From: Perkinsus olseni
Lineage: Eukaryota
Assembly: GCA_013115125.1 (NCBI GenBank)
Contig: JABANN010000098.1
Span: forward strand, 1 to 64,000
Reading direction: 5' to 3'
DNA length: 64,000 nt
Numbering within the stretch: position 1 is the stretch's first letter; every line of letters starts with the position of its first letter. The notes below the pieces were generated by a model. That model had not been told where the DNA came from. It made no database searches and saw only the letters and a list, made by a program, of their open reading frames with translations. Shown here one piece after another: positions 8,220-42,925 of the stretch. The translations under genes were made by a program, and so were the position numbers.

Positions 8220-10406
8220 CACGGGTGAAACTCCATCGCACACAAAGCTGGTGCTACGGAGATATAATCTCATTGAGCTCTGTACTACTGAGCTTTTGCT
8301 ACTAGTTGAGTTCCCTACTTTCTCGCGGAAGGCGTCGCGCATCAGTACTTTTGCGTTCTTGATCTCCCGAAAGTCGGTGGGATCTTCACGCGAGAGAAAC
8401 CTCCAGCACTTCTCTAGCTGCCTGTGGGAGGGAACCGAGTAATAGAGGACAGCGAGAAAACCCGACAGATACGCGAAACAATTACGCTATCGTATCCATA
8501 GCCACGAAGGGGCGAACAGCTTGCATCTTGTCTGTGGCCACTGCGAGGGGCTGTAGCATACTTTGGATTCCTTCTAACAAAGGTTTCTTGCTCAGTAGGC
8601 TCTCGAAGGACCTGCACAATTGCGAACGATAGCATTGACACACCTTAACGTAATGAACCCGAGCTCTACTGGAGTCTGTTGTTTTTTGAGAATATCGATA
8701 TGATGGCTTCCCACGAGCGAATCACTGAGGATACCATGCGTAAGGAAGAATTCCACCTTGTATCGTTGCGAATACATAGCCTGACACAGTGGAAACCCAG
8801 GTGTGATGTGCAGCTTCAACAACGACCCTTCATTACCTTACACAGTTCGGCTGCTCAGCGATCTCTACATTCATCTTTGTTCGTCTAGCCACAGCAACCA
8901 ACCTACTCACTGTGGTCAGTAGCCCAGCCACCGACGATGACTCTTCCTCTGGCAGCGGGTGCATCATATCGTTGAGGGTAGTTGACATGATTGAAAGGGT
9001 TTCTTCATTTGCTTTGGCAGCGGGACCTGTTTGCCGATTAGCGAGCCTCCTGCTTCGGCTTGTCTTCTGAGTATCTCCGGTAGCCGGGTTGGAGACTGTC
9101 GTCGCAGGGTAGGTACCAGCCTTCACTGCCAGCTGTAGTAGATGGCCATAACAGGGTATACTAGCGGCGCCCAGTGTGGTGAGCGCCTTTATGTTGGCGC
9201 TGCACGAGTCACTCAAAAAGAGGACTTCGTCCTTGCGGACGTCGTAATCGTCAAGGACCTAACATGATCTCAGTGGCTGCGATGCACTCGCAAGCGGCGG
9301 TTTAAGGAGCTCATCCGTCTACACTACGGGTACACATCAAGTAGTCTTTCACAGAATTGTACTACCGTCTGCAAAGTGCCAGCTATGTCTTCGCCCTGCC
9401 CCGATTCCAGCTTCCTCAGTGCTATCAGGACCGGCTCAGCGCCTTCATTTTCATCCTTCTCGAGGACCACCGTCGTGGCGAGAACTTCCTCGCCTTTATG
9501 ATACGTTTTCCATGCGTCAAACTGCATCTGAAAAGAGGTGTTCTGTACTCGATAGCTCACATGAAATGAACCCCAGGATGAAATCCTCACCTGCAGCGGT
9601 CGGTTTCGGCGTTTCAAGCGGCTTTTTACTTCCTCCTTAACTTTTGAGTACCTCTCCTTCACCGCGGTTGACACCGCCTTCGCACTCGGAAGGGAGCGAT
9701 CTGCGTCAAATGGCCTCCCGTTGCGAGCGCCGAGGTCCGTCGCCAACTGTATAAGCTTGCGGAAGGCCACAGATTCGGTCACTGTGAAGGGCAGAGCTTG
9801 CGCGACTATAAGGTCCACACACGCCTCGAGAAGACGACCCCGTTGGTCCCCGGCCAATGGAGTCGGATCTTTAATATAATGCAATACAGACGGAGTATCC
9901 TTTCGTTTCTCCGAGCACGCTTTAAGATGACGGGTGAGGGTACTAGTGTTACCCTTCTTGCACTTGAAGATGGTGCGGCATAAGCTGCACACAGCAAAGT
10001 CCTTGCAAACGACACGAGAATCTTTCACGCGGATCTTCATGAAGGCCGTTGTCGACCAGACGTCTGAGCGGGCACTAGAATTCTTGGGTAGGAAAGGCTC
10101 GAATATACGCTCATCCAGCTTCTTTGTGGGCTTGGGTTCCGGAAGAGAGGAATGAGTACCCGAGGCGCAGTCATCGACCTTGTCTCCTTCCGCACGCGTC
10201 CCCTGTTCCTCATTGTTGGGTGCTACGAACACCTTCTTTCTCTTTGTCGGAGGAGAACCCGTGAGGAAGCCCTTCTGTTTCGCATCACCCTTCTCGCCCT
10301 CCAACTCCAGGCGCAAGGCTCGAGCAGCGATATCAGCTGCTGTTTCAGAGATGATGGGCACCTCGTCGACCAATAGATGAGCAGCTGACGATGAAGATGA
10401 TGCCAT
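8220..10406 (-). mobile_element. hAT-superfamily transposase gene with BED zinc finger and introns, 3'-truncated (probable pseudogene)
   Basis: BED finger (SDVW...AVCSLCRTIF...NTSTLTRHLKAC), LPFTVTESVAFRKLI, first catalytic Asp region (FDAWK), SDSCSANIKA...CYGHLLQLAV, RNDTRWNSSLRM (~8740-8770), LQPLAVATDKMQA, and AMEFHP at ~8225. No C-terminal dimerisation domain is seen after that. Confidence 0.88.
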
Positions 10407-10465
10407 AGATAAGCACGACAAGATAAGCTCCTAAGAAGGCATATGCAACGTCCCGAGACCGACTT

Positions 10466-11905
10466 TTGCAGAGCTATGATGGCCAAGTGTCGGTTAAGGC
10501 TTTGCCCAACTACCCCTACCAGTTCATCATGACGGTGGAGTCGCCAGGGTCTAAACGCGTCGAGCACTTCTACGACCACAAGTCGTCTGTTCTCGCCCAC
10601 ACTCAAGTCCCCAGTCATGCTAGCCGCCTTCAGAATGCTGGTATTCACCCAGGTGATCTCGAAGCACAGGGGTGGACTCGTGAGGGTGTTGATAAGCAGA
10701 ATGGTGCTGTTGTGAGCAAATGGTCGAAGAAGGGTCCTGAAGGTGTTGACCCCAAGGATGGCACCAACTACACGGCTCTCTACCAGACCGGTCTCTTGCC
10801 CGATACCTGGGTTGTCTTTATCGACGAGAGCGCCCAGCAGCCTGTGAAGCTCCTGGCCATCAATACGTATGTTGGTAGCAAGGTCTTCCAGGAATCCATC
10901 TTCGGGCATGCTGCTCCTCTCGACAAAGAACTCAGCATCGAGTCGGCAGTCGAGGCTATGTATGATACCTACCGCATCGATTCCCATCACCATCCCGACG
11001 AAGCTCCCGTAAGAGAGGCCCCGTTCGTCATGACGGATTATATCGGCGGCGACCTCCTGGCCGAGAGATCTCGTGCTTTCTTTGAGGAACATGATGCAGA
11101 GGACTGGATGAGCGGGCCCCGATCTCTCCGACAGGGCACTGTGTCCCGAGGAATCAAGTACTTCACCATCGAGGAGAACTCCGCAGCCGACATCTACTTC
11201 CACGCTTCGAGACATCGGCATCTTGTCAAGATTGTCAGTTTTGAATTTCCTAAGGGATGCACTAGCGGGAAGTCTGCGAACCCTTCCGCGAAGTACTGCT
11301 TGGCTGCCTCCGTCGACGCGTCCCTCGACAAGTCGGTAACTGTCAAAGGCTTAATAAGCTTCACGGATGCCAACAAGCCCTCCGTCAAGGCCCACTTGAG
11401 CTTGTCAGTGAGCTTGAAGAAGGGTGGCGACGCACTCGTTCTCAACCTAGAGTTCGAGGCCGGTGGATGTGCTTTAGTTTTCCAATACGGTGAATCAGTG
11501 AGCCTCACTATCACCGTCTGCATCTCCGGTGCGGGCAGTGGCCAATCCCTTCTCCAACCCGATAATCGAACCTTCCATGGCGAAGTTGATGCCAGTGTCA
11601 GGTTCGATTTGAATCTACCTAAAGTTGGCAGTGTCATCCACTCAACCATCGAGGCTAAGGTCGGGTGTACGGCAAAACCCCATAATGTTATTTCGGCTTA
11701 TGGAGTGATCGGCACGGGGATCGATGTTAAGCTCGCCTCCGCTGGAGTAAGCCTTGATATCAAGGGGAACACTGTTGCTAACCTGGCCAACGAGTGGGTG
11801 TTCGTCTCTGGAGTTAATTTACATGCCTCCGTCGGAGTCTGGATCTTCAAGAAGACTTGGACAAAACGTTGGGTTCTGTGGCACGCGGGCCCCGTAAAGT
11901 TCTAA
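10466..11905 (+). CDS. Hypothetical protein (~480 aa, beta-rich C-terminal half); 5' end missing or on an unlocated exon
   Basis: Long uninterrupted ORF with coding-like codon usage. It is open from 10427 (APKKAYATSRDRLLQSYDG...) after a TAA at 10424-10426 and has no ATG at its start. A possible acceptor (ttttgcag) ends at 10471. Confidence 0.75.
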   Translation: MQSYDGQVSVKALPNYPYQFIMTVESPGSKRVEHFYDHKSSVLAHTQVPSHASRLQNAGIHPGDLEAQGWTREGVDKQNGAVVSKWSKKGPEGVDPKDGTNYTALYQTGLLPDTWVVFIDESAQQPVKLLAINTYVGSKVFQESIFGHAAPLDKELSIESAVEAMYDTYRIDSHHHPDEAPVREAPFVMTDYIGGDLLAERSRAFFEEHDAEDWMSGPRSLRQGTVSRGIKYFTIEENSAADIYFHASRHRHLVKIVSFEFPKGCTSGKSANPSAKYCLAASVDASLDKSVTVKGLISFTDANKPSVKAHLSLSVSLKKGGDALVLNLEFEAGGCALVFQYGESVSLTITVCISGAGSGQSLLQPDNRTFHGEVDASVRFDLNLPKVGSVIHSTIEAKVGCTAKPHNVISAYGVIGTGIDVKLASAGVSLDIKGNTVANLANEWVFVSGVNLHASVGVWIFKKTWTKRWVLWHAGPVKF

Positions 11906-12487: not shown

Positions 12488-12671
12488 ATCTGAGGTGGAT
12501 TCGGCGAAACACTCTGCAAAGTATCGACTGGAACTCATGAAGGATTGTACAACTTCCACTTTTCTCTTCTTCCAGACACTCTGGTTCGTCGACCAGCCCC
12601 CGCAGTAGCCTCATCGCGAAGTGTTCGCAACAGTAGCCCAGTGTTAGCTCTTTCTCGCACGTGCTTCGATT

Positions 12672-13760
12672 ATGGCAGCGCGTCGTGCCAGGGGTATCTG
12701 GAAGCCAGCATCTCTGTGGGTTGCTTATCTTTGCGGAGCGCCGCTCAGCAGCTCGTCTGCGCTATGGCGAGCCACGTTCAAAGGAGGTACAAGCCTTAGG
12801 GCCCCTTCGAACGTGCTGAGTTACCCTCCCAACGATCCGCTGTTTCCCCACCAGAAAACTGTTTTTGAGGCCTTGCGTATTAAGGAGGTTTGGGAGGCGG
12901 TGACAGAGTCTGGTCTCCCACGGAAGAATGTCATCGTGACCATCATAGATACGGGGATAGCACCTGGACATCCTGAATTTGAAGGGAAGCTGCTGGAGGG
13001 ATACGACGCCTCTGGAGCATGGCCGGAGTCATTCACGGATCATAATGGTCACGGTACGGCGATGGCCGGTGTGCTCGGTGCAAACATCAACAATGGAGTC
13101 GGGATCGCTGGCATCGCCGACAAGGTCAGGATACGCCCTATAAGATTGACAGATCGAGCGACGGGACGTGCCACTGCTACGATGAAAGTGCGGAGCTGGG
13201 AGGCGGCCCTCAAGTTCAAGGATACCGACATAATAGTTTTTGCTTACGGGTCTCCCTTCACGCAAGATAACTCCCTATTCTATAAGCGTACTCTGGAGGA
13301 GGCTGTGAGGAAGGGAATCTTCGTCGTCACGGCTTCCTTCAACTCCGATACAAACGACACAACGGCGGTTCCCCTCCCGTGTTCTCTAGCTCATATTATA
13401 CCCGGAGTTCTTTGCGTAGCGGCAACGAGTGCACTGGAACCCACGCAACTTCTGGCAGAGCCATCAGAGCTCGCCAGCCTGGGATCGCCTGGCTCGGAAG
13501 TGTGGGCTCCGAGATCTCTCGATGAAGATCATTGGGTATATAAATTTAAAAAGTATAGGGGCTCATCGGTCGCCACAGCCGCTGTCGGTGGTCTAGTGGC
13601 GTTGATACGAAGTTTCAAGAACTTCAAGCCGGCGGAAATCGAGAGAATGCTTTTAAACTCCACGGAGGGCAGATGCAGAACGACGCAGGGTAAGGAGATG
13701 CTGTATGGTGTTCTTCGACCTGATCTCGCAATCAGGCAGGCGATAGCCTTGGCTCGGTAG
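12672..13760 (+). CDS. Subtilisin-like serine protease (peptidase S8), intronless
   Basis: PNDP motif, catalytic Asp (VTIIDTG), His (HGTAMAG), oxyanion Asn (TASFN) and Ser (RGSSVATAAVGG, variant of GTSMA). Confidence 0.92.
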   Translation: MAARRARGIWKPASLWVAYLCGAPLSSSSALWRATFKGGTSLRAPSNVLSYPPNDPLFPHQKTVFEALRIKEVWEAVTESGLPRKNVIVTIIDTGIAPGHPEFEGKLLEGYDASGAWPESFTDHNGHGTAMAGVLGANINNGVGIAGIADKVRIRPIRLTDRATGRATATMKVRSWEAALKFKDTDIIVFAYGSPFTQDNSLFYKRTLEEAVRKGIFVVTASFNSDTNDTTAVPLPCSLAHIIPGVLCVAATSALEPTQLLAEPSELASLGSPGSEVWAPRSLDEDHWVYKFKKYRGSSVATAAVGGLVALIRSFKNFKPAEIERMLLNSTEGRCRTTQGKEMLYGVLRPDLAIRQAIALAR

Positions 13761-15332: not shown

Positions 15333-18300
15333 ATGTCTCGCCCTTTCACTGACGATGACATTAAAGCTGTCCGCGACCTCTGTCCGATGGGTGAGTTGTC
15401 CTCCGCTGCTTTGCTTGCACGAGCTCCGCTCCGCGAGACGAAAAACATTCATTCTTCTTTCCCTGTCGCGTTTTTCTCGACAGGAATTTGGAGTCATTCG
15501 ATTAACATTGTGAACGGAGGAGCATGATTCTCAGATGTGTGCTTACCAGGATTCGAACCGGCGTGCCTCAGGTTCGGACAGTGACGTAGAGCTGGCATTA
15601 TGGCGGGCAAACGGCGACCGGAATGTGGCGGTGAATATGCTCTTATCCCAGCAGCCGAGACCCGCCGGAAGCGCGCCAGTTTTGTGGGTTTTGGAGGAGC
15701 ATAGTCGTCGGACTGTTTTCGATGCTTGCAATCCCTCAGGTATCCGAGTCGTCTGCAAGTGGCAGCGCCTACTGTCGCGGTGAGTCCCTCGGGGGAGGTG
15801 GCGGTGGTCGACGACTAGCAATTGTCTGCTTGGCAAGGTTTATTCTCATTTGCGCGCTCAGTCCCGTAGCTCGCCGCGAATCGCACCTTCACGTGGTTCG
15901 TGAAGTGTCGAGGATATGAGCCAGTCTTTAGTTCATGGTGTCCTTTCTAATGTGGACTACGCTTCCTCGAACGATAGCTCAACCACCTGGATTGTTGTTT
16001 GGTCGTCAAACGCGGCTTATTCTGTGCAGCTTCATGTACTTCCGTGCCCATTACCGTTGAGTGGACTTTCGGTGGAGCATTACAGTTTTCCAGGCTCAGT
16101 CAGTCCCTCGTGAACAAGCGGAGCGTAGCGCGGATATCAGATGTTGTTCGTGTCAAGAGATCATGACGGTCAGCGTTAGAGGGCCCCGTAAGTCCGAGGG
16201 ATTCAATTCGTTCGCGTCAAGTCTCTCCTCAGGTGACGAGTCGGTCGAGGCTGAGGCTGCTTGCCCTCGATGCCATCAGATGAACAGATTTGTATTGCCA
16301 GCCGAGAAAGTAAGTAAAAATGGCCAACCTGCAACGCTTCGCTCCGCTGTTCAGGCTGATTAGTCTCTCGATTTCAGGAGCCTGTTGTCGCGAGCGAGGC
16401 TGCTCCGTTCAAACCCTATCCGCAGCATATGTCTGCCAATTTTGAAGCTTCTGACGCGGCCCATGCTCCTCCACTAACGCCTCAGGTAAGGAGTGGTCCC
16501 TAAGAGTCTGAGGATCATGGGGTCGGATGGCGACCCAGAGTCACGCGCGATGACCTTGTCTCGTGACCGTTTGCTCTCAGAACGCCCCTTCTTCCTCGGT
16601 TATGGAGAGCCAAGGTCAGTTGGGTCTGCCGCAGAATATGCGAATACAGTCAGTTCAAGTTGGCACGTTGGTGCCTACTCTAACAGGTCAGTACCCTCGG
16701 TCGGTTTTCTAGGAAGGGCGGAACACGTACGAAGAGATTTTCAATCGTTCGACTCCAAAAATTTTGGCATAGTGCGGCAGTGTTCTCACAAGATTCTCGA
16801 GGCGGGACGATATGATGGCCGTTATGCCATAAGCTGAGCCCTCATACTATGAGGCTCATAGAATCTTAGGTCGATGCTAATAAGATGCAAAATAGGTCAA
16901 TATTGAGCACGTGCTGACTGCACAGCAGTCGGGCAACATCAGTAATGATGGTCGATCGGTGTGAAGGTTGTAGTTCTCCATCTCTCGAGACCACAAGTTC
17001 TATGACCCCTTCACCAATATCGCCTCTCTCGTCATCTCGGGTTGTGGCTGGATTCTTCGTCCCTCTTCAGGTGTCCAGAGGGCGCTTTTGGTCGGTATTA
17101 ACTATTACGGTTCCAATTGTGAGCTGTCGGGGTGCATACCGGATGTCCACAATATGAAGAGATTGTTGGTGGAGACCTACCATTGGAATCCGAATGATAT
17201 CAAACTCCTTACTGATGATGGACAGAACGAGGCGCCGACACGTAAGAAGCTCCCGGAGAGGCTCAGTATTCGTCCAGAGTCTGAGTGGTGCTTGGTGAAC
17301 GGAGTCTCTCTTCAGGAGAAAATATTATCCGTTCTATGCGCTGGCTGGTCCGGGACGCCAAGCCCGGGGATATATTCTTCTTCCATTACTCTGGCCACGG
17401 AGCCCAACAGGTGAGTAGGGGTTCTCTGGTGTAGTCGTGGCGGAGGTTGTGTGCAGGAAGACCCCTTACACCTTGAAGAGGACGGCATGAACGAGACCAT
17501 CATACCTGTTGATGTAAGATTCTATGCGAACCGCTTGCCGATCGTGACAAGTCGGTGAGAGACGGTCGTTTGCAACTTTTTCAATAATTGATCGTCTAAT
17601 TATTCAACCATTCGTTCGTCTTTTCGATTTGAAGCGCCGAATGATACTTGGATCAGAGTGTCCCTCTTGCACTTGCACGGCGATGGGGTTGGAGACAGGT
17701 ACAAAGATCGGGCCAGATTACGGATGATGTTATACATGAGATCTTGGTGGACCCTCTCCCCAGCGGTGCGAGGTTGACTAGCGTGATGGATTGCTGCCAC
17801 TCCGGGACAGGTGAGGGTGGGAAGAGGCATAGTGGCTGTACTGGACGGTATTTCCACGGACGGAATCACGTTTCTGTCGGGTGGGTGAATTTACATTCCT
17901 CGTGATAATTTCTGAAGAGCTTGGAGATGCTCGACGGATGGGCAGATTTCTGGCGTGTGGCATCGCTCGCCCGATATCGCCCAGAATCGTAGCTGCAAGA
18001 TGCTCTCCTATTCTGGTAGCACTATGATAGTGATAACAATGGTAAATGCTCGCTCAGTGGCTTCCACTGTATCGGTAGTATTGGTATTAGTCAATGATTA
18101 AGAGCTGATTATTGCCAATAATTTTTGGTCATTCTCTCAGTTGGAGTATATCTTCTCCACGGTTGTCTTTGAGTGGGTTTCTTGAGAGTCCTCGCCGTCT
18201 CGTATCAGGCATGGACCTACCCTTCACGTGGCTGGCCGGTAGGGGTTGGAAAGAAGATGTCAATCCATGGCACTCCAGAGGGGATGTAACCGGAACACTG

Positions 18301-19382
18301 TCGTTGTCGTAACTGGTGCAAGCTCGATGAGCTCTTCAGGTGCAACTCTTCAGTGGCTGTGATGATAGTCAGACTTCAGCAGACGCGGCGGCTGGGAATC
18401 TGAAGGGCGGAGCGATGACAACAGCTTTTTGTGAGTCCGTGTGTTATCTCGTAGACGATGAGAGACGTCCAGAGGGAGATAGGGCATTGATAGCTAGGGA
18501 CAGCTCTTGGTAGTGTGAGAATCGATGCGGCCTGGCTCGCTTTCGGGCACTGAGCTGACGAAACTCCCCTGAGATGGGAAAACTAAACTGTTTCATTTTT
18601 TGTGAGGGGGTTCATAATGATCTATAGGATTATAAAGTATACAGAATTGGTTCGGACTTCGATGTAAACGCTTTGGGATTTCGAAGTTCCAATTCTCACC
18701 GTGGCTCTACCCGACCGGTTGACGCGGCAGCCAGCTGTTGAGCACACACTGTTTCACTGAAACGGTTTTGCAGCTAATTATATTGAGACGGAGCGAAATC
18801 TTGCTCCATCATCGCGGTTCTTGCCTCGTCAGCCCGTGACAGATTTCATGTCAGGTAATGCTATAAGAAGTAACCCACAGGTGTCCTACACTGGCTTGAT
18901 CGAGGAGCTGGATATTGAGATGAAGAGAACGCATATGTCCCAGAGGCCGCAGCTCTCGACGTCCCAGGTCTTCCCTGTTGACAGGTCGGTCTTCGCGGCG
19001 ATTCGTCAGATTAGGGAGGAGGTGTTTTTTCAGGCCCTTCAATTTGACTGATATTTTACCTAATCAGAATCAGCATATCGGCCGAATAGTTCACAAGAAA
19101 TTCGAGGCGAGACCCAGCAAGCAGAAGAACTTCGCCCTGAACGCTCTCCTCGCCGGAGGCATTGGTCTGGCTGGAGGGATGCTGGTCGGTGACGCCATCG
19201 GCCACGCTCAGGACAGACGTCGGCGTCCAATTGTTGTGGAGCCTCGTCGCAGGCCTGTCGTCGTGGAGCCCCGCCGTAGACCGGTTGTTGTAGCTCCCGG
19301 TCGTCGTCCTGGTCCGGTGGTCATCGAGGGTCCGAGAGGCCGTTTTGGTGGCAAGGGAAAAGGCAAGGGCTTCCGATGGTGA
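15333..19382 (+). CDS. Metacaspase (peptidase C14B), copy 1, multi-exon
   Basis: Spliced exons give [11 protein letters not shown]...[17 protein letters not shown] (catalytic His, ~17375-17400), [23 protein letters not shown] (catalytic Cys, ~17790), [19 protein letters not shown] and QRPQLST. N-terminal UBA/CUE-like and CxxC..CPxC exons lie at 15333-16310. Stop at 19380-19382. Confidence 0.93.
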
Positions 19383-19989
19383 AGTTTCGCCAATTTTAAG
19401 TATATTTTACTGTGTTCTTTCGGCGGTGTTTTTCCAAAGATGAAATACCGCCATTACTCATATTCAACGTTGTTTAACTGCTCTCCTGTTGCCAGTTGGG
19501 AAGCGCGTCACCTCTTGTGACGCTCTCGTGTATTTAACATAAACTCTTCCCGTTTCCGCGGTCTGGTCTCTTTGGTTGATCGATGGGAGTGGGGTAGTCG
19601 TCTGAACTCACTCTTAGCTGATTCTCACATGTATATGCTCTCAACTGTGAAGAGTGACACTAGGCTAGTGTCAGGGGGACTGGCTGATCACAGAGAACAC
19701 AACACCCGGTTTTTGCCGTCGGGAATTCGATCTTAGACCTTCTGTCTTCGCATCATCGACGATTGAGCTTACTGTCATCGTGGCTTCTGATAGAAGCTAG
19801 ATAGAGCGATTTAGGGGCTCACAAGGGGGTTCGAGCCTCGGCCGGATGGCAGCCATTCGGCGTGTAAAGGGAACCGGGAGTATCAGTCATGGTCGGATCT
19901 CCGATGGGAGGACATACGATTTGATCTTGAAGCCTCTCGAAGCACCGATGGGTTTATCAGATTTGCTGTTGTAGTGTCTCAAAGTTTTC

Positions 19990-22900
19990 ATGTCTATAAC
20001 GCCAGCATTTCCGCAAAGTGACATAGAAGAGATCAGGTTCCTGTGTCCTGGAAGTAAGTCCATTCTGTCTACCCTGAGGTTAGAGTTCGCTGCTGGGCGA
20101 ACTGTGGAGGGCCTCCGACCCGAGCGAGTCGCTCACGACGATCTGCGCGAGAGAACATAAGCTTCCTTTTTCCCTTCAGGTTCTGACAATGATATAGAGA
20201 AGGCACTTTATAAATACCATGGCGACAAGAATCTTGCCGTTAAGGACTTATTGAATATTAATGATCAGAAACCCCAGCCCAAGCCGCCTGGGACGGGTCC
20301 TCGAATGTGAGTCAGAAAGCTGAATCGTTCGTTAGAATCCTCGGATACTTGAAAAGGAGGGCGCTAAATCCACCCGGAAATAACCGTTCTATTGTCTTTT
20401 AGCATTTGTGAGCGCTCGTATGGGTCGAAAGCACGACCAAGTCTCTGTGGTGACTTAGCACACTGTCCATGCAGGACTCTGCTCTCATGCTCTAGATTTC
20501 TCTTTTGTCGTTAGAATCTCCCTAGCGGCCCTTGCTGATTCTCAGTGCTCCTCGTTGAGGCGGCGGGTCGCTGGCTTGAAGAATGGTCGTGGTAGGTACT
20601 CCTCAGTCTCCTCCGGCAGTGCTCCTCAATATAGCGATCAGACTAATGTAATGCTGTCACATAAAGTGCACCGCTTTTACCCTAGGCGGGTAACTAATAG
20701 AATCCTTACGACCGGCTTGCCGCCACTCACTTTGAGTGCCATGGACACTCCCCTTAGGTTCGGCAGCAGCACACTACCGGGAAGGAGGTGAGGACCGAAG
20801 AGGTGCAGTGTGGTATGTGCCAACAGATAATCACTCTTCAAATGCCAACCATGCGTAAGTCGGGATGTCTCGCGTATTGTCTTGAATGCACCGGCTCCGA
20901 TAGGCCCTGCACTAACGGCGGCGTAAGGATCTATGCGGGATGTAGATGTAGCATAAATTACTGTGCAACCGACACGATAGCCACATGATTTACAGCAAAC
21001 CGACGCGTCCGCCAGGCTTAGTCTGAAGCATTATTCGTGTTTTCTGGCAGGCGGTGGGCCCCTCCGTGCAAGAGCCACTTGCCCTCACTGTCAGCAGCTC
21101 AACGAGTTTGATATCCCTGCTCTGCAAGTATCATAGACAAGCATCGTGCCATGAGTAATGCGGTATAAATTCTGCGTCAGACTACCTCTCCCCTCTCGAC
21201 GGTGGGAGGGTTCGCCCAATCACCGCCAGCTTTCACAACTGCTCCTTCCTCTGCAGCGCCCCCTATGCCCTACTCTCCTCAATCACACGCCACTGCGCAG
21301 GTAACGAGGGGGTTTTCTAAGCTCGGCGGCAATGTCGGACCAGCATTGTATTGCACTTCTATTGCGGCCGCTTCCGACCATGGAACGTGGAGGGAATTTT
21401 GGAGGAAATTTCGGACCAGCTGTAGACAGCTGTATGTCTCGTAAAAATCGTGAAGCATAAGATGAAGTGCGATGAATTTAATTCATTCGATTCATCTCTC
21501 GGAAAGCTTCTGATGCGTCGATGTGTGATGGAAATGGACCATGCGCGTAGTCGGCACTCAGACTTCGCGAAGGACTCGTTCTCGCTATACTCGTACGCTC
21601 TCTCTGATGGGAGGAAAAGCGTCCGAAATTTGGCCTTCCTCATCCATGCTGCGCGAGTGACATCGAGCTGTGGTCTTCATCAGGCTCACGCCGGAGTTCC
21701 ACCTCAGGGACTTACCATGGCGTCTCAGGCTCAGTACGGCCTGCCTGCAACCATGCAGATGCAGCAGACGGCAGTTGGGGTGCCGGTGCCGGAACTTACT
21801 GGTAGATTCTCTCCATTTCTAATAACTGATGAAGCACTCTTCATCTCACTTCAGGTGTCCAGAGGGCGCTTTTGGTCGGTATTAACTATTACGGTTCCAA
21901 TTGTGAGCTGTCGGGGTGCATACCGGATGTCCACAATATGAAGAGATTGTTGGTGGAGACCTACCATTGGAATCCGAATGATATCAAACTCCTTACTGAT
22001 GATGGACAGAACGAGGCGCCGACACGTAAGAAGCTCCCGGAGAGGCTCAGTATTCGTCCAGAGTCTGAGTGGTGCTTGGTGAACGGAGTCTCTCTTCAGG
22101 AGAGAATATTATCCGTTATATGCACTGGCTGGTCCGGGACGCCAAGCCCGGGGATATATTCTTCTTCCATTACTCTGGCCACGGAGCCCAACAGGTGAGT
22201 AGGGGTTCTCTGGTGTAGTCGTGGCGGAGGTTGTGTGTAGGAAGACCCCTTACACCTTGAAGAGGACGGCATGAACGAGACCATCATACCTGTTGATGTG
22301 GGCAGCCAACTGGGGTTGCTGGCGAGAACGCTGATTGCGCAGGTTAAGAAAGCTGGACAGATCACAGACGATGAGATCTTCCAGATTTTGGTGGCGCCCT
22401 TACCTAGCGGAGTCAGGCTCACCAGCGTCATGGATTGCTGTCACTCGGGAACTGGTAAGCCGAACTCCAGCCGTCCGATACACGCAGATAAAATGGGTTT
22501 GATGGGATCTTTTTTCTTCCTCCCTGATTGCTCACTCGGCGACGGTTTCTGGTCTCGGTCGCGAATGTGAGTCACAAGTACCGTAGTAGTTTCTGGTAGT
22601 CGCGAGAGTCAACAGCCCCCTTTGGAAACTCGTAGAACGTAACTGGTTATGCGGTAGGCCGTCTTCACTGCCCATGCGCTCTAGTCTCGAATCTTATCTG
22701 CAACGAATACTCTAGGACTGACTTATGCGTTACACGTGGACGCGTACTAGCAAAGAACAGCAAGATAGCAAGATTCTACTTCTTCTTCGTGCGACTTTGA
22801 GTACTCGTTCAAAGAGTAGCCAGGACTTTCCCCAGGTATGGATTTACCTTGGACGTGGGTGGAACAACGTGGATGGAAAGAGGATGTTAACCCTTGGCAT

Positions 22901-24286
22901 TCCAGGGGCGACGTAATATGGCCGCTGCTCGATATTTGGGGGCAAGTCCGAGACATTATCGTTCATCAGGCATCTTTGACATTATGAGTTATTAGACATT
23001 ATGGTTGTCGTTGTCTTCTTCATCGTTGCCTGGGCGCTGCACGATACTGGGCGAAGTCACTCTCTTCCCAGGTGCAACTGTTTAGTGGGTGTGACGACTC
23101 TCAGACCTCAGCGGACTCCTCTGCTGGCCCTATCAGTGGTGGTGCGATGACGACGGCATTTTGTAGGTCACGGGGTTGAAGATGATTTCGGATTTTGCGG
23201 AGCGAGGCTTTAGCAACGTTGTGACATCAAAAAGAAAGAAGAATAATTGATGAACTTAGTGAGGCTCGCGATGTGCATGGAGGCTTCGGAAGGTGGCGGA
23301 ACCGTTGCTTCTTCGATGCTCGTACGCTACGATGGCGAAGCGAGGCGTCATCATCATCTTGAGACCGCGAATGACGAAATCAAGGACACACAGTGTCATC
23401 TAGTATGACACCAACCGTCTTGCTAGCAGATCGTTCCCCCAGGTAATGCGATTCGCGCTCGCCCTGGAGTAACCTACGTCGATCTCATCGACGAGTTGAA
23501 TAATGAGATGCGTCGCAAGCATATGTCGCAAAGGCCACAGCTGTCGAGCTCGCAGGTCTTCCCGTTGGACAGGTAATACCGGGGTAGACTGCAAATGGGG
23601 AGGACGGGCTCGGTACTCACCTTAGTGACAAGTCGCAAACAGTGGAGTTTCACCCGTAGTTCGTGAACTGGTGTTTTCCGATGAGAAAGGCGGAATTCAC
23701 GATGAGAAATGCGAGAAAGGTGTCATGTCGCGGGTGAAACTTGAGCAGTGCTCCTCAATGAGCACACCTCGGATAAAATATATCGTGGCAGGCGGCCATT
23801 GAAGGTATTTTGATATTGTACCGCCGAGAAGCGAGGTCACTGATCCCCGGCGATACAAGCGGGTGGACTTCCGGAATTATCTATCGTGGCAGCCATGGTG
23901 TGCTGGTCTCGCAAAGCCGAGGAGCGGGAGCGTTGGGTCTGCTCAGCATCTCGTCTTTGGCGGGGTGACCGGTTGATGGTTCTGTTCTTGACCTCAGGCC
24001 CTTCAACCTGACGGACATCCTTCCGAATCAGAATAAGTCCATTGGTCGAACTGTGAGACAAAAGTTCAAGGCTCGGCCGAATGAGAATAAGAATAAGTTT
24101 TTGAGAAACATGCTCCTCGCGGGAGGGGCTGGCTTGGTCGGTGGAATGCTCCTTGGTGAGGCTACTGACGACTCGCCCCGTCCGGTAGTGATCACGGCTC
24201 CCCCACTCATCGGCGGACCGAGGATAGATCTTGGAGGGCTGTTCGGTCGAGGGGGGCTGCTCGGGAAGGGGAAGGGGCTGTTGTGA
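19990..24286 (+). CDS. Metacaspase (peptidase C14B), copy 2, multi-exon
   Basis: [21 protein letters not shown] + [28 protein letters not shown]...CPHC; HYSGHG (~22170); DCCHSG (~22435); [11 protein letters not shown] (~23090); Gly-rich tail ending GKGKGLL*. Confidence 0.93.
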
Positions 24287-24884
24287 GAAGAATCTTTGCT
24301 GTGCGCTACCCATTCAGGAGTTGCTATTTTCACCGTATCTTAGCTTCTTACACGACAAGTTTCGTCTAATGAGTGCTTCTTATGATCCATAGGACGTAAT
24401 TCCATCTTTGGCTTCGAGGTTTGCTTCGGCTGTTGCATTGTCTCTTTGGTCAGCATCAGTTCTTGGTTCGCATTTATCTTTGATATACTCTCAGTTCCTT
24501 GGTCTACTTATCGGACATCGACCTGTCTATTTTTCTGGCCATAGTTGTGTTCAGTTGAATGAGAATTACATCAGCCTTACCTGAGGTTGTCGGAGGAATC
24601 TGCTTTAGTTCTCCTTATTTTTGTTGACACTGTCGTAATTAAAGATTGGAAAGTTCTCTCGCTTACAAAACCTCGCTAGAGTAGATCCTGGGCCATCATA
24701 ACTAGTTTCATCAGCAACCGCAGTCGTACTCCTCATATACTAGCTTTGAGAATCTCCAGACTGAGCGCAGAGTTGTGTGCTGTCGTCTACCACGTCGCTT
24801 GTCGGTTGATGTTCCGAGAGGCTGGTCGGTGGTCAGAGCTGAGGGAACTCTCCGCCCATTCCCGTCTTGTGATTCGGTGCGAAT

Positions 24885-25029
24885 GGGGTTGCCTTAATCG
24901 GTCGTGATAGTATACTGCCTTTCCAGTTATACTTCTGCCCGTTCCGTAAGAGTTGGTATGAACGCGTCTACACCGGACGGCAGTGTACTAGCAGTATACT
25001 ATCATGACCCATTGAGTCAACCCAACCCC
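24885..25029. mobile_element. Short (~145 bp) foldback / MITE-like element
   Basis: The left arm ggggtt..gccttaatcggtcgtgatagtatactgc is an imperfect inverse of the right arm gcagtatactatcatgacccattgagtcaacccaacccc. The core recurs at 5306-5402. No clear TSD. Confidence 0.55.
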
Positions 25030-25159
25030 GATTCTGAGTCAGACGTCGATCACATCTCAATTTCGAGCCAGAATTTTTGACGATGGTCGCCTTGCGCGGG
25101 AACTTGTGGCATGCCATTATGCAGTTGATTGGGTTTCCGTCAGCTTGTTGTTTCGAGTA

Positions 25160-28100
25160 ATGGTCACAAGGCCCTTCTCCGCGGAGACAGTCGCCCAAAT
25201 AAGGTTCCTATGCCCTAACAGTAATAAGGGTGGAGGATGCCTTTTCTGCTTCTTGCGTGAGAAAGCTATTCTTTCTCAAGGTACGGATAATGAAATCGAA
25301 GCTGCCCTCTATAAATACAATGGCGATGAGAATATGGCCGTCAATGAGCTGCTCAACCAGCAAGAACACAGAAGCTCTGGCCGGCCTTCCAATCGGAATT
25401 AGTAGGTGGAGTTCGCCGGCTGTTCATGGCGCTGGGTTCCCGGGCGATACTCTTTTATTTGAGTGAGATCATCTGATCTCGATCAATATTTTTAGTGGTT
25501 CTCGGTAAGCATCTTTCTGTCAGTTATCAACAGCCGGCAGCACCACAAGTAGCCGTCGGAGGATCCTCGGCACCGCTGCAGGCCTCGGTGGTAGTATGGG
25601 CAATAGCTCACCGTTTGTTTCTGTTTCCTAAGGACGATACACACTGCCGAATTGCTATAGAGGCTCTTTCGTCTACGTTATGTTTGAGCTTATACGCAAA
25701 TGTGCTAAATCTTTGACACAACACCTTATTAATCATAGCCATCATTACTATATTACGTACCATACAATTACAATTACCATTACTGTATTAATACCATACC
25801 GCTACAAATCATAATATTCCAATTTTATTTGGAGTACTGTAGCGATTGGATAGCGAATGTGGAGCTAGTGCTTCTCATCGCTGTTCGATTGCTCTAGCTG
25901 GAATGGAATTACTCCGCTCGAAAAATCGCGTTCTCAGTGCACGATGAGCGAATTCGCAGAGTGCATCAGCGTTTGCTCCTTGAGGATTACACGTGCCGGT
26001 GGATTCTTGCATAGCCACTGGGATGCGTTGTCATCATGGTGATGCCCTTGGCTCGTGCTTTTTCGGAAGATAACACTTTCGAGTGCTCTGCGGACAATTG
26101 CCTTTGACAGGACTCTATTATAATGATAATGTGCAGTGCTACATGTATCGATGCTCTGATGCTTGCATCTTCAGCTGATCAGGTTCAACCATCGCAGTCG
26201 AGAGAAGTCACCAGAACTGCTCAAGTTCAGTGCGGACAGTGCCATCAGGTTTTAACAGTCCAAATGACGGCTATGAGTAATACAGACCAGTAGTAGTAAT
26301 GACGTTGAATTCGGGCTGTGATTCTGTGGACCAATTTCCCTCAATAATTTGGGCTTCTCTTAAGAGGAATTCTACCTCGTCACGGGGGAAAATTAGGCTT
26401 TTACGTATTCTCTAACACCCGTTCAACCAGTCATACTTCTTTATCACAAGTTTCGTATGAAAAGCGGAATGGTAGACTAAAAACATGAACTACCCCACTG
26501 GGGCTACGTGGGAGTCATCAAGAAATTGGTCATTGGTTTGCTCAAGAACCGCCGTATCGAATCGAAAGAACCTTTGAGGGAAAAATTTCTCGTTTTTTCG
26601 CACTGATTTCAGCGGTGTTATTCCTCTTCGTTTTCTACTCGTACTTCATGTCAGGAGATCGGTCGGTGAAGGCCCAGGCTACCTGCCCTCACTGTCAGAT
26701 GCTGAACGAGTTCATGATACCTCCGGACCCGGTAGTGTTGGGCTCCTCGGCGAACCCGATCTAAGGGCCCGATGCGTATTCGGCATCGTTTTCGTCTGCG
26801 ATGCGAAGTGGAGTCAGTTTTCTGGTTTACAGGTGCCGACGGCTACCGCCATGCCGATGCCGGGCGGACTGCCGCAGCAGGCTCCACCGCCGAGCATGCA
26901 GGCTCAGGCGATGTATGGTCTGCCTAGTCATATGCAGATGCAACAGACGACACAGATTGGGATACCGGCTCCTTCCCTCACTGGTAGTAACTGGCACAGA
27001 GGTTCAATATTGTCGCGCGCCACGAAATTGCTCTGCAGGCCGAGGCCCCTCATCGGGCGTTACTTCGATCTCAGAGATGTTATTGTCATTCAGTACTCAT
27101 CGGAATGCTTAGTGTGCAATTTCTCTTATGAGATTATTCATCTGATTCATGTCTGGCGTCGCGCGCCACGAAATTATTCATGGTCCTCCTCTTCAGGTGT
27201 CCAAAGGGCCCTTCTGATTGGTATCAATTACTATAACACCCCCGCGCAGCTTTCGGGATGCATCCCTGATGTGAGTTCTCGGAGCACTTCGTCGGTTCTG
27301 CCTCGGGTTTGACGTCGGCTATGGAATGGCTGGTCGTTGCCACACTCGGCGTTTCCGGTAGTGCTGTATCGACGAGCGAAGCGCATTTTGCTTCTAATAC
27401 GGAGAAGATGTGATCACCTCAGGCACATAATATGTTTCGGCTCCTTACCGAGACCTACAGATGGAATCCGGGTGACATAAGAATGATGACGGATGATGGA
27501 CGTGCGGAGATGCCTACAAGTAAGACTGACTCTCGGCCTCTGTTTAAATTCCGAGCTCGGCCGAGGAAATAAGGATCTCTCTTCGACCGTCCATGTCGCC
27601 TTCCATTCAGGAGCGAATATAATAGCGGCACTGCACTGGCTGGTCAGAGACGCGAAGCCAGGCGATGTGTTTTTCTTCCACTATTCTGGTCATGGGTCGC
27701 AACAGGTATCAGCCACGGTTTCCTCATGACTTCAATCTTGGGTGCATCTCTGTCTTTCAGCCGGACCCGTACGGAATGGAAGAAGACGGTATGAATGAGA
27801 CGATATTGCCTTGCGATGTGAGCGCTGCGACATTGATCTTCTTTCGAGGCAAAATCTCTGTTAATTTCGCAGGTTCGACGGGCTGGGATGATTTCCGATG
27901 ATGAAATCTTTGCGATCTTGGTGCAGCCGCTGCCTAGCGGAGTCAGGCTCACGAGCGTGATGGATTGCTGCCACTCTGGAACAGGTGAGCAAATCTGGAC
28001 TCTTCCTCGCTGGTTGTTCGAAGTTGAGGCATTATCCTGTCGTTCGTAAAGCGATTAATCTAGGGTTGTCTACGGCAGAACCCACTACAACGCAGATCTT

Positions 28101-29029
28101 AGGGTTTCTGCATGTAGTTTTCATAGGGTTTTGAGATTATGGTCGCGATGCCTGTCAAGCAGGTTGCGGTTTTGCAGTGTCTTGTGGGTGTAGGTATGGA
28201 TCTGCCGTGGCGATGGGTGGAAAGAAGAGGATGGAAGGAGGATACCAACCCGTGGCATTCTCTGGGAGATGTCAGACTGGCCACTGGGAGTATCTTTGTG
28301 TGCATGCGTGCAAGCGGGTATCTTCTAGGTTCAGCTGTTCAGCGGGTGTGATGATTCTGGGACGTCTGCTGATGCATCGGCTGGGAACATGCGGGGCGGA
28401 GCGATGACAACCGCATTCTGTAGGTCCAGTCTGCTGAAATTTTGTGGTTTCCTCGATGCGCGTCATCTTGAATTGCGTAAAATCTTCATTTTGTCTCCGC
28501 ATGAAGTCGGTGACATGTGACAACATGGTTCTTACAGGAGAGTGGTTTCACAGCGCGCTCACTCGCGCTCTACTTCACGGCTGGAAGCGAAAGAGAGTAT
28601 TTCTCGGCTGCTCTGGAAACGTATCATGATTATTCTGCTGTAGGTAACTCTATCCGTGCCAACCCTTATATTAGCTACATCGACCTTATTCATCGGCTTA
28701 ACGATGAAATGAGGAGGCATAGGATGGGCCAGCGCCCTCAGTTGTCGAGCACGCAGGTGTTCCCCGTTGACAGGTGGGTTCGCCTGAAAAGACGGCTCTC
28801 CAGTTTTTCGTTTGAACTTGGATTGGCTGAAAGTGAGTGTGTTTTGCACTGCAGGCCCTTCAATCTGACGGATATACTCCCGAACCAGAATCAATATATT
28901 GGCAGGATTGTGCGCAAGAGGTTCAAGCCACGTAAGAACAAGAAGAAGATGCAAGGACTGGACGGCTTGCTGCTGCCCTTGGCTGGCGGTATGCTGGCTG
29001 GCGCTCTGTTGGGTTCGATTTTTGACTAG
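25160..29029 (+). CDS. Metacaspase (peptidase C14B), copy 3, multi-exon
   Basis: [20 protein letters not shown]...[28 protein letters not shown]...[20 protein letters not shown] (~27680); DCCHSG (~27965); [11 protein letters not shown]; tail [20 protein letters not shown]. Confidence 0.93.
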
Positions 29030-29899
29030 GCATCTGCCATCACAATCGATCAAAAGGGCGAGCGCTATGTATTGTCATCCCATTTTGTAATCTTCTGTTC
29101 TGGGGAAAGTCCTTTGTTTGAGCGGTAATTGAATTCCTCGGCGGTGATAGTTGCTTCAATTTCACAGTAGTTACTTTTCATTTTTACATTGCTGTAGTGT
29201 TCGGAGGTCATCAGGAGTAAAGGGGGAGTGGTGGTGGTGGTTGTGGTGGCTGTAGTTTGAGGTAGTAGAGTACATGCCCGCTGTCTTCAACGTACTTCGG
29301 CGAAGGGACGATTTGAGAAAGCTCGGTAGAATCTTTGTTGGTTCTTCCAGCTTTACGTTGTGGATGAGCGAAGGGCCTTCGCCGGAGGCGATTCGGTGAG
29401 ATGGCTTCTGCACTAAACTGGGCGGGGTTAGCAGTATGCTGGCTGGCGTTCTGTGGGTTTGATTCTTGACTCTCTCATCGCAATCGATCAAGTGGGCGAG
29501 CGCTATTGCTTTCAAGAATGTATTGTTAACCCGATTTTTCGACCGGAGACGACTCGGTGAGCTCATTTTCGGTCTGAGGCAGTCTGGCCGGGATTCCGAC
29601 TCGGGCCGGCCACCGTCTCAGTTTGGAAGTCTCGTTCATGACTCCAGTTGTGGGGGGGTATTGTCACCACTGCTACCGATGGAAGCTTGAGCTCAAAGTC
29701 GCTTCGCATTGTTCGCCCAGTGCCGGGCGAGTGGCGATTCAAAGTTGAAGCGAAAGGCCTCGCAAAGACTTCGTTGTTGACCGAATCGCTGACGGTTGAT
29801 ACAACGATTCAGCTCGATATGTTGTAGAAGGTCTATTACATCAATGTCAGTGCAGCCAAATCGCTTCCTTAAGATCACAGCTGCAGCCTCAACCCATTT

Positions 29900-41527: not shown

Positions 41528-42602
41528 GGCGGCGACCCGTGGTGTTGATGGCTTTAACTCATCACATGGGATGAGTCATCGATTGGTCACAGTCATGTGT
41601 GCTTTCCGTGTGTGATAGTAGTAAAATATCATTTCTTGCGTGTCACCAGGGGAGTTGAGTAGGTGGGAGTCCAGACTGGGCTGGTCAGCGGATGAAGATA
41701 GTCTGTCATTTTCCGTCTGAGCATCAGTGCATGTCGCTGACCAGCAATATTTGTCCCACAGATTCGCGGGAATATGCTGTGGCATGGATCACTCACTAGT
41801 CTGCTGTGCCTCCGGGAAGAACCTCTCAGTACAAGGTGACTGGAGAAACAACCGCGCTTGAGGATGTGCCATTCAGTGATCAATCGCAATCTCGGTCTCG
41901 AGCAGACCAAGTTCAGCATGGCTTCACTTGTCTTAGGAAGGATAGCAGGAGGCGGTCGAGAGAGAAGGTAGAGAAGGGGGGGGAATGATGGGATAGTGGG
42001 ACCCTGGGTGATTCCCGCGATTCAATTTGAAACGACTCGAGTTTTATGCATTCGCCTAGTATTCGCAATCTGTCATGTTGTATGAAATGTGTTTACTAAA
42101 TGTGCGAAAAAATATCGAGAGCCTTGAGGAACTCATGTCCAAACCGTTGTGGGGTATCCCTTCTCAGCTTGCTGGCTTGGGCCACCACTCGTGTGAAACC
42201 ATGGTTGTAATCTACTCGTGGCAGTGACAAAGAGGTGCAGGAAGAATGGCCCTCGATGTCGGCTAATAGTCGGAGTCAGGTCTGTCACGTAGCTGATGAC
42301 TGTCATAGACAGACTATGCTGTAGCAGACCTTGGTGTCCGTCAGAAAGTCTGAGGATGCGCGTAGCGTGTAGCCCGCCCACGGAGTCAATCGACACTTTT
42401 TATTGATGTCACAGCGTGCTCGAATGCAAGCGGCCCCTTCATTAGAGCCCTGGCGGAGGGGAGGCGGACACTGAGACAAATTTTCTCATATTGAATATGG
42501 CCGAGCTAGCCACGATCGGCTGAGTTCCAAGTTCCGTGTTTCAGTGAAGTAATTTTGAACGAGAACATAGCAGCGGGTGTGTCCAGTCGGCCTGTGCAGA
42601 CA

Positions 42603-42925
42603 GTGGGCATAGACCTCTACGGGCCCCTGCACAATCTCCGACGGACATTCAAGGTTCGTGTTGACGGCCACATGCACGTTTACTGGCTACACGGACTTCA
42701 GAGTCTTCGCCGAACAGACGCTGCCGCTGATGTGAGCAATGGCTTGACAGTTCTCTTCTTGAGATACGGGTACCCTCAATACATCGTTACCGACGGCGGC
42801 ACTCACTTCAGTAGCCGTGCAGTTCGAGGCATTTGCGCGGACTCGGGGCATCGAACACATTGTCATCCCTCCCTACACGGCCAACTACGGCGGCTTCTAC
42901 GAGAGAACGCACCGCGACATGAGCG
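42603..42925 (+). mobile_element. Degenerate LTR-retrotransposon integrase core (rve), BEL/Pao-like
   Basis: VGIDLYGP...FLRYGYPQYIVTDGGTHF, then a frameshift to FARTRGIEHIVIPPYTANYGGFYERTHR. The GGFYER motif is typical of BEL/Pao integrases. Confidence 0.8.

What the first reader, a model, noticed from the sequence alone, without database searches (positions are those of the whole stretch)
15333..29029. Tandem triplet of metacaspases with an N-terminal UBA/CUE-like domain plus a zinc finger: candidate ubiquitin-directed protease module
Seen in sequence: all three catalytically intact (HYSGHG / DCCHSG) metacaspases begin with a conserved ~45-aa module split over exons 1-2. The three copies read [79 protein letters not shown] and [40 protein letters not shown] CxxC...CPxC finger and a Pro/Gln/Met-rich linker follow. 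Established knowledge: the pattern (M/F)P...I..AL....GD...AV..LL is the UBA/CUE three-helix ubiquitin-binding signature. Plant type-I metacaspases such as AtMC1 carry an LSD1-type CxxC..CxxC finger in a Pro-rich prodomain, and yeast Mca1 acts in aggregate clearance. I do not know a described metacaspase class with a UBA/CUE domain in front of the zinc finger. Inference: these proteases may be recruited to, or activated by, ubiquitinated substrates.
Basis: partly seen in the sequence, partly recalled or inferred. Interest (0 to 1): 0.75.

Follow-up and report, generated by a model that had tools for sequence, protein, structure and literature searches.

The report
Perkinsus CUE-domain metacaspase triplet
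A shellfish parasite carries three neighbouring protease genes that each begin with a small domain of the ubiquitin-binding type; the genes are real, but this pairing is already known from Toxoplasma and common in protists, and binding to ubiquitin has not been shown.

Summary
Window 15333-29029 has three tandem type-I metacaspase genes (558, 558 and 492 aa) of Perkinsus; gene A equals an annotated P. olseni protein letter for letter. RNA contigs join the N-terminal exons to the catalytic exons in genes B and C in 4 of 4 runs. The first ~46 residues fold as three helices, with Tollip CUE and EDD UBA as best Foldseek matches, and are conserved between species. The novelty claim mostly fails. 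Toxoplasma TgMCA was published in 2016 as C2 + CUE + Pro-rich + C14 (PMC4717298), and 47 of 278 non-Perkinsus relatives carry the domain. The finger is C-x2-C-x21-C-x2-C, shared with dinoflagellate metacaspases, not LSD1-spaced. Only the CUE-then-ribbon order and the triplet look Perkinsus-specific. Ubiquitin binding is untested and uncertain: the MFP motif reads LCP, and the fold also occurs in proteins that bind other partners. Best reading: calcium-dependent proteases, probably steered by weak ubiquitin binding (about 45%). Verdict: new variant of a known kind.

The parts
15333..19382 (+). Metacaspase gene A, 15 exons, 558 aa; identical to annotated P. olseni protein P0005
   Evidence: RNA covers only 3' exons, weakly and in some runs
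15333..15651 (+). Gene A CUE/UBA-fold domain (aa 1-46; exons 15333-15390 and 15572-15651), motif LCP...LL
   Evidence: AlphaFold helices 7-16, 22-31, 36-45; phmmer match to Tollip CUE, E 0.076; CUE HMM 17.7 bits against shuffle maximum 5.2
16142..16273 (+). Gene A zinc-ribbon motif C-x2-C-x21-C-x2-C, split by intron 4
   Evidence: ribbon HMM 17.2 bits
17071..18984 (+). Gene A Peptidase_C14 exons; catalytic His283 and Cys339
17054..17515 (+). 462-nt tract 98.5% identical to 21838-22299, including introns 8 and 9; probable gene conversion between A and B
19975..19989 (+). 5' UTR of gene B after an AG at 19973-19974; one RNA contig has loose letters TTGGCTCA there, which match the end of the Perkinsus/dinoflagellate spliced leader (leader sequence recalled)
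   Evidence: table 7 (run X7 only)
19990..24286 (+). Metacaspase gene B, 15 exons, 558 aa
   Evidence: one spliced contig from exon 2 to the last exon, plus intron 1, in 4 of 4 runs; 95% identical to P0001
19990..20256 (+). Gene B CUE/UBA-fold domain (aa 1-47), the weakest-scoring copy
   Evidence: 5.7 bits with the first HMM, 13.7 bits after one iteration; 69% identical to P. chesapeaki P0173
20809..21091 (+). Gene B zinc ribbon C-x2-C-x21-C-x2-C
   Evidence: 26.5 bits
25160..29029 (+). Metacaspase gene C, 15 exons, 492 aa; exon 3 ends at 25590; has one extra intron in C14 (27271-27422)
   Evidence: all 14 joints in 4 of 4 runs; 81% identical to P. marinus P0046
25160..25357 (+). Gene C CUE/UBA-fold domain (aa 1-46)
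   Evidence: Pfam HBS1_N E 0.0011 and UBA E 0.043, both below cut-off; CUE HMM 19.2 bits; 90% identical to P0046
26231..26695 (+). Gene C zinc ribbon C-x2-C-x21-C-x2-C
   Evidence: 28.9 bits
28855..29029 (+). Last exon of C: basic patch followed by a Gly-rich hydrophobic helix; the same tail is in A (19034-19382) and B (23998-24286) and in most of the family, including TgMCA
   Evidence: 47 of 53 CUE-bearing and 129 of 197 other C14 proteins meet the tail test

Best explanation
These are three paralogous type-I metacaspases of Perkinsus, members of a widespread protist subfamily that includes Toxoplasma MCA1. In this subfamily a C14 protease with a basic and Gly-rich hydrophobic tail is preceded by a variable set of small targeting modules (C2, CUE/UBA, WW, EF-hand, PBZ, zinc ribbons). 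Perkinsus fixed the order CUE, zinc ribbon, Pro/Gln linker, C14, tail, and triplicated the gene. Shown: gene structure, expression of B and C, intact His/Cys dyad, CUE/UBA fold (predicted), and conservation of the module. Inferred: a Ca2+-activated, Arg/Lys-specific cytosolic protease (family knowledge, recalled); association with membranes or the cell cortex through the tail; and a CUE that binds ubiquitin weakly, probably chains on cargo, concentrating the protease on ubiquitinated aggregates or membrane proteins. The CUE would be an address label, not an activating switch.
For: Fold: three helices at pLDDT 84-96. Foldseek's best matches are Tollip CUE 1wgl and EDD UBA 2qho (rmsd 0.7-1.1 A over 39-43 residues; no match reached E 0.001). 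The only non-C14 hit among 12 PDB sequences for P0005 is Tollip CUE, E 0.076, residues 6-53. An HMM built only from non-Perkinsus metacaspase CUEs scores 8 Perkinsus N-termini at 13.7-20.8 bits, against a maximum of 5.2 in 1460 shuffles. The di-leucine and the Pro are kept in 7 of 7. Orthologue identity is 69-90% in the CUE against 19-45% in the next linker. 26 of 56 non-Perkinsus copies keep an aromatic hFP-type motif, and several pass Pfam's CUE or UBA cut-off. TgMCA has a CUE (PMC4717298) and lies in cytoplasmic puncta and at the inner membrane complex (PMC8359067, passages). AtMC1 is recruited to stress granules and clears aggregates (PMC10473220, abstract).
Against: The aromatic residue of the MFP/hFP/haP motif, described as essential for ubiquitin binding (PMC6688830, passages), is Cys in 6 of 7 Perkinsus copies and Ser in 1. 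No Perkinsus sequence reaches a Pfam CUE or UBA cut-off. In the wide structural search the top row is the EF-Ts N-terminal domain (Z 7.5), tied with Tollip CUE (Z 7.0), and no row reaches Z 8. A canonical CUE can prefer a non-ubiquitin partner (SMARCAD1-KAP1). 231 of 278 relatives have no detectable CUE (some are fragments: 200 have at least 60 residues before C14), so the protease does not need one. The term search of the TgMCA1 follow-up paper found no mention of ubiquitin or CUE.
Confidence: 0.45

Rival explanations
1. The domain has the CUE fold but, in Perkinsus (LCP) and perhaps in the xLP half of the family, has been repurposed to bind a non-ubiquitin partner such as a cortex or alveolin scaffold, a chaperone or a ubiquitin-like domain. 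The enzymes would then process structural proteins during division, as proposed for TgMCA1/2 and IMC1.
For: The aromatic motif residue is lost in 7 of 7 Perkinsus and 26 of 56 other copies, yet the domain is strongly conserved. The same fold occurs in EF-Ts, NAC and HypK. SMARCAD1 CUE1 binds KAP1 over 1000-fold better than ubiquitin (PMC6688830). TgMCA1 partly co-localises with IMC1, and the MCA1/MCA2 double knockout has IMC1 defects (PMC8359067).
Against: Half of the family keeps hFP and LL, and tandem CUEs are frequent (9 of 278), as expected for chain binders (recalled). No alternative partner is known.
Confidence: 0.33
2. The N-terminal modules act mainly in cis as a prodomain: CUE and ribbon, or the helix at aa 169-183, fold back on C14 to restrain it until Ca2+ triggers autocleavage, in a cell-death or stress pathway as reported for TgMCA.
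For: The pre-catalytic segment aa 169-183 is modelled as confident helices (pLDDT 76-92). TgMCA knockouts show less TUNEL-positive death (PMC4717298, Discussion). Autoinhibitory N-termini are known in type-I metacaspases (recalled).
Against: CUE and ribbon are separated from each other and from C14 by low-confidence linkers, and the N-terminal fragment has pTM 0.31, consistent with independent beads. The ribbon-to-C14 linkers of B and C contain no Arg or Lys for autocleavage. Modules are swapped freely across the family.
Confidence: 0.15
3. The domain is a non-functional relic, or the CUE call is a chance three-helix resemblance.
For: Pfam scores are below cut-off; ESM Atlas feature scores are only 0.80, a level shuffled proteins reach a third of the time; Z is under 8.
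Against: It is kept in all three paralogues of P. olseni, in A and B of P. chesapeaki and in C of P. marinus, at 69-90% orthologue identity. Sequence, profile and fold searches all point to the UBA/CUE clan.
Confidence: 0.07

Closest known systems
Toxoplasma gondii TgMCA/MCA1 (TGGT1_206490; 742 aa, matching P0162 by length and annotation)
   Same: CUE domain, Pro-rich region, intact His/Cys C14 domain (PMC4717298); 49% identity over the C14 region; its CUE scores 40.9 bits with my HMM and also lacks the aromatic residue (ILP); same basic and Gly-rich hydrophobic tail.
   Different: TgMCA has an N-terminal C2 domain (per the paper) and no zinc ribbon. The Perkinsus proteins start with the CUE, have a ribbon after it, lack C2, and come as a tandem triplet.
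CUE/UBA-bearing metacaspases of other protists (Chromera velia P0019, Prorocentrum cordatum P0107/P0110, Diacronema lutheri P0150, Entosiphon sulcatum P0060, Pyramimonas P0022)
   Same: One or two CUE/UBA domains upstream of the same C14-plus-tail unit.
   Different: Partner modules differ (C2, WW, EF-hand). Only P0022 of 278 has both a finger and a CUE, in the reverse order and with x13 spacing.
x21 zinc-ribbon metacaspases of dinoflagellates and other algae (e.g. Gymnodinium smaydae P0016)
   Same: Same C-x2-C-x21-C-x2-C ribbon; an HMM from these scores the window's ribbons at 17-29 bits against a shuffle maximum of 8.4.
   Different: They have PBZ or RanBP2-type fingers, not a CUE, ahead of the ribbon.
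Plant type-I metacaspase AtMC1 and yeast Mca1/Yca1
   Same: Type-I layout with a Pro/Gln-rich prodomain and a short p20-p10 link; best structural matches are Candida and yeast Mca1 and T. brucei MCA2.
   Different: No CUE in those proteins (recalled); the LSD1 finger is shorter and Pfam zf-LSD1 does not hit the Perkinsus ribbon; they lack the long tail.
Tollip CUE (PDB 1wgl) and EDD UBA (2qho)
   Same: Best Foldseek matches of the N-terminal domain; Tollip is also the only non-C14 sequence hit.
   Different: Canonical CUE binders carry MFP/hFP; Perkinsus has LCP/LSP.

Membership tests
Type-I metacaspase (C14B) | Peptidase_C14 domain with catalytic His and Cys | tested here: met
   PF00656 118 bits for P0005; Cys339 aligns with the Yca1 cysteine mutated in 4f6p; both motifs are in all three models
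Type-I metacaspase (C14B) | N-terminal prodomain and short p20-p10 linker | tested here: met
   190-220 aa prodomain; continuous alignment to T. brucei MCA2 over aa 199-451
Type-I metacaspase (C14B) | Acidic Ca2+ site and acidic S1 pocket | tested here: met
   D223, D306, D315, D337 and D346 are at least 90% conserved in 50 aligned relatives and align to Asp in Yca1 and TbMCA2; their roles are recalled
Type-I metacaspase (C14B) | Ca2+-dependent Arg/Lys-specific activity | not testable with these tools
   needs an enzyme assay
CUE/UBA domain | Three-helix bundle of about 42 aa | tested here: met
CUE/UBA domain | Pfam CUE (PF02845) or UBA (PF00627) score above cut-off | tested here: not met
   best UBA 14.1 bits against 22.4 on an exon piece; no CUE hit at E 0.1 in 9 Perkinsus proteins; TgMCA also has none
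CUE/UBA domain | Profile homology to Pfam-positive CUE domains | tested here: met
   13.7-20.8 bits against a shuffle maximum of 5.2; gene B missed the threshold with the first HMM (5.7 bits)
CUE/UBA domain | MFP/hFP/haP motif after helix 1 | tested here: not met
   LCP in 6 of 7, LSP in 1 of 7; motif definition from PMC6688830
CUE/UBA domain | Di-leucine at the end of helix 3 | tested here: met
   LL in 7 of 7
CUE/UBA domain | Binds ubiquitin | not testable with these tools
   needs a binding experiment
LSD1-type zinc finger (PF06943) | Short spacing matching the 25-position Pfam model | tested here: not met
   x21 spacing in all Perkinsus copies; no zf-LSD1 hit, whereas x14 P0170 hits it weakly (E 0.0054); a distant relationship is not excluded
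TgMCA1-like CUE metacaspases | CUE upstream of C14 plus basic and Gly-rich hydrophobic tail | tested here: met
TgMCA1-like CUE metacaspases | N-terminal C2 domain | tested here: not met
   no C2 in the models; full-length RNA contigs of B and C start just upstream of the CUE ATG

The most novel reading that the evidence does not exclude
A broad but overlooked protist subfamily of metacaspases, found in alveolates, a haptophyte, a green alga and a euglenid, uses CUE/UBA domains to find ubiquitinated cargo and a hydrophobic tail to sit on membranes. This would be a direct physical link between metacaspases and the ubiquitin system. The Perkinsus LCP variant with its zinc ribbon would be a chain-selective or two-signal version, triplicated and partly homogenised by gene conversion.
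Probability: 0.3. Interest if true: 0.6.

Novelty: new variant of a known kind. Interest (0 to 1): 0.3.

Why it matters
Metacaspases are linked to aggregate clearance, but how they find their substrates is poorly known. A built-in ubiquitin receptor would be a simple answer, and it is easy to test because the domain is 45 residues and occurs in free-living algae. The CUE on TgMCA was noted in one sentence in 2016, and my searches found no follow-up. The Perkinsus locus itself adds only a lineage-specific domain order, a degenerate motif and a tandem triplet, so it illustrates the family rather than defining a new class.

Tried and rejected
Complex prediction of own-genome ubiquitin with gene A aa 1-50 gave no verdict (score 0.18 in two runs, mark 0.34; the alignment was not used and no controls were folded). 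It is not counted either way. Pfam scans gave only sub-cut-off UBA-clan hits. The ESM Atlas feature search gave CUE/UBA clusters at 0.75-0.80, a lead only. A profile of 50 full-length relatives against PDB found no CUE, and Foldseek with the full-length model listed only caspase-fold proteins. The zinc ribbon was barely tested in the fold searches, because the CUE filled the lists. A word-indexed search with P0046 aa 1-130 found only 3 Perkinsus proteins among 40 candidates (limited sensitivity). The search of 1.84 billion representatives returned 23,019 hits, of which I saw the best 150, so 'CUE-then-ribbon only in Perkinsus' holds for 292 proteins, not for all. The ribbon pattern count (21 of 278) includes 2 visibly different fingers (P0024, P0207). 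RNA runs gave little or no cover of the laid part of gene A; this does not show low expression. The trees are poorly rooted and were subsampled (97 of 148 and 99 of 242 C14 cores); they support Perkinsus monophyly but not a precise sister group or a single origin of the CUE (14 changes, at least 7 forced). Paper searches with no describing paper: metacaspase + UBA domain, + Perkinsus (18), + domain architecture + dinoflagellate + ubiquitin (20), + C2 domain + Plasmodium + MCA1 (58, 0 hits), + Apicomplexa + C2 domain + CUE (78, 0 hits), + ubiquitin-binding + protist (90). These were judged from listings and abstracts, except PMC2868825 and PMC10105704 (passages); subscription papers are not in the library. 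PMC10143347 mentions CUE only in a reference. Flanking genes (subtilisin, DUF6740, hAT transposase) show no link. Earlier scan notes concerned other proteins.
Full report
1. What is there. The window is contig C3319 of a 39.9-Mb genome. Joining GT-AG exons gave three open models on the + strand: A 15333-19382 (558 aa), B 19990-24286 (558 aa) and C 25160-29029 (492 aa), each with 15 exons. Model A equals database protein P0005, annotated as a Perkinsus olseni 'Ca(2+)-dependent cysteine protease', letter for letter. All 29 matches to P0005 in the own genome fall in these three genes (only the best candidates are scored).

2. Splicing. I laid 4 of 24 listed runs (one on record as RNA, three guessed) on 17520-29300. 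All 14 introns of C and intron 1 of B appear in 4 of 4 runs; 15 of 31 joints were printed. In each run a single contig of 1863-1950 nt carries B from exon 2 to the last exon. RNA moved the intron 3 donor of C to 25591. One contig has loose letters TTGGCTCA at 19973, the end of the spliced leader as I recall it; trans-splicing in Perkinsus is reported in PMC2868825 (passages), which did not print the sequence. This places the CUE ATG 15 nt into the mRNA and leaves no room for a C2 domain. Gene A's 5' exons were not in the laid stretch and rest on P0005, P0006, P0004 and P0218.

3. The N-terminal domain. AlphaFold gives helices 7-16, 22-31 and 36-45/46 at pLDDT 84-96. Foldseek on the N-terminal fragment P0218 ranks Tollip CUE and EDD UBA first (rmsd 0.7-1.1 A for EDD), though no E-value is under 0.001. 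The wide search ties EF-Ts (Z 7.5) with Tollip (Z 7.0). phmmer against PDB finds Tollip CUE as the only non-C14 hit among 12 (E 0.076). Pfam stays below cut-off. An HMM built only from non-Perkinsus metacaspase CUEs scores A, B and C at 17.7, 13.7 and 19.2 bits after one iteration, against a shuffle maximum of 5.2; B scored only 5.7 in the first round. Between orthologues the domain is 69-90% identical and the next linker 19-45%. It is therefore a real, selected CUE-family fold. Of the two elements described as essential for ubiquitin binding (PMC6688830, passages), LL is kept in 7 of 7, but MFP reads LCP in 6 and LSP in 1. The same paper shows a CUE that prefers KAP1 to ubiquitin.

4. The finger. 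It is C-x2-C-x21-C-x2-C in every Perkinsus copy, modelled as a four-strand ribbon. Pfam zf-LSD1 does not hit it. The pattern occurs in 21 of 278 non-Perkinsus relatives, 2 of which are another kind of finger. An HMM from them scores the window's ribbons at 17-29 bits, against a shuffle maximum of 8.4. Zinc binding is inferred.

5. Is the architecture new? Li et al. 2016 (PMC4717298; passages and Discussion) state that Toxoplasma TGGT1_206490 has a C2 domain, a CUE domain and a Pro-rich motif. In my set of 292 proteins, which was gathered by similarity to Perkinsus and is therefore biased, 47 of 278 non-Perkinsus C14 proteins have a CUE/UBA by HMM (seeds included), 9 of them two. Named carriers are Toxoplasma, Chromera velia, Prorocentrum cordatum, Diacronema lutheri, Pyramimonas and Entosiphon. 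Only P0022 has both a finger and a CUE, in reverse order. The CUE-then-ribbon order was seen in 7 proteins, all Perkinsus. A basic patch plus Gly-rich hydrophobic tail is present in 47 of 53 CUE-bearing and 129 of 197 other members. In C14 trees the Perkinsus proteins form one clade (support 1.0, 100) with C branching first, and CUE is scattered over the family (14 changes, shuffled mean 33.4). Equal contig lengths suggest that the cluster is also tandem in P. chesapeaki (P0004, P0173, P0089) and P. marinus (P0008, P0046); I did not see those contigs.

6. How it probably works. The C14 domain matches Candida and yeast Mca1 and T. brucei MCA2 and keeps the conserved aspartates, so a Ca2+-activated Arg/Lys protease is expected (recalled family property). 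No N-terminal hydrophobic stretch suggests secretion. CUE and ribbon hang on flexible linkers and are interchangeable with C2, WW, EF-hand and PBZ across the family, which marks them as targeting modules. I favour weak ubiquitin-chain binding that concentrates the enzyme on ubiquitinated aggregates or membrane cargo (0.45). This fits the cytoplasmic puncta of TgMCA1 (PMC8359067, passages) and aggregate clearance by AtMC1 (PMC10473220, abstract). The rivals are a repurposed CUE with another partner (0.33), cis-autoinhibition (0.15) and a relic (0.07). None of these steps has been tested.

7. Verdict. The fold call is right, but a CUE-bearing metacaspase is published and common in protists; the Perkinsus order and triplet are a variant. 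My paper searches found no family-level description and no binding test, so a modest, testable question remains. No supplements were consulted. The scan's index held no note on this protein. Interest 0.3.

Noticed in passing
window 17054-17515 and 21838-22299: A 462-nt tract is 98.5% identical between genes A and B, introns 8 and 9 included, while the other exons are 54-73% identical. It looks like recent gene conversion over the catalytic-His region; P. chesapeaki A and B (P0004, P0173) also share an identical stretch there. B's letters are confirmed by RNA; an assembly collapse on the A side is not excluded.
   Followed up: partly
window 19034-19382, 23998-24286, 28855-29029: Basic patch plus Gly-rich hydrophobic helix after C14, present in most of the family including TgMCA; possibly a membrane anchor. 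It recalls the tails of plant SRC2-like C2 proteins (recalled, untested). Gene A adds Arg/Pro/Val-rich repeats and a Gly/Lys end.
   Followed up: partly
window 28986-29068 and about 29431-29506: An 83-nt, 82% identical second copy of the end of gene C's last exon and the start of its 3' UTR; probably a decayed partial duplicate.
   Followed up: partly
window 19973-19974: Probable spliced-leader acceptor 15 nt upstream of gene B's ATG, seen in one run.
   Followed up: partly
P0008 (P. marinus protein): Has two ribbons (C-like, then A-like) and begins with the last residues of a CUE; either a chimeric paralogue or a faulty gene model.
   Followed up: no
window 12648-13760 (+): Intronless subtilisin-family ORF (Peptidase_S8) just upstream of gene A.
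   Followed up: partly
window 10427-11905 (+): Intronless 492-aa ORF of family DUF6740 (E 3.5e-172).
   Followed up: partly
window 8833-10430 (-): hAT-like transposase pieces (weak zf-BED and Hermes DNA-binding hits).
   Followed up: partly
window 42510-43019 (+); 47798-49400 (+): ORF pieces that resemble, by eye, a retroelement integrase and an EF-1alpha/eRF3/HBS1-type GTPase; not tested.
   Followed up: no
P0016, P0092, P0058, P0035 and relatives: Dinoflagellate-type metacaspases combine a PBZ (poly-ADP-ribose-binding type) finger, sometimes a RanBP2-type finger, and the x21 ribbon, suggesting that this family reads several modifications.
   Followed up: no
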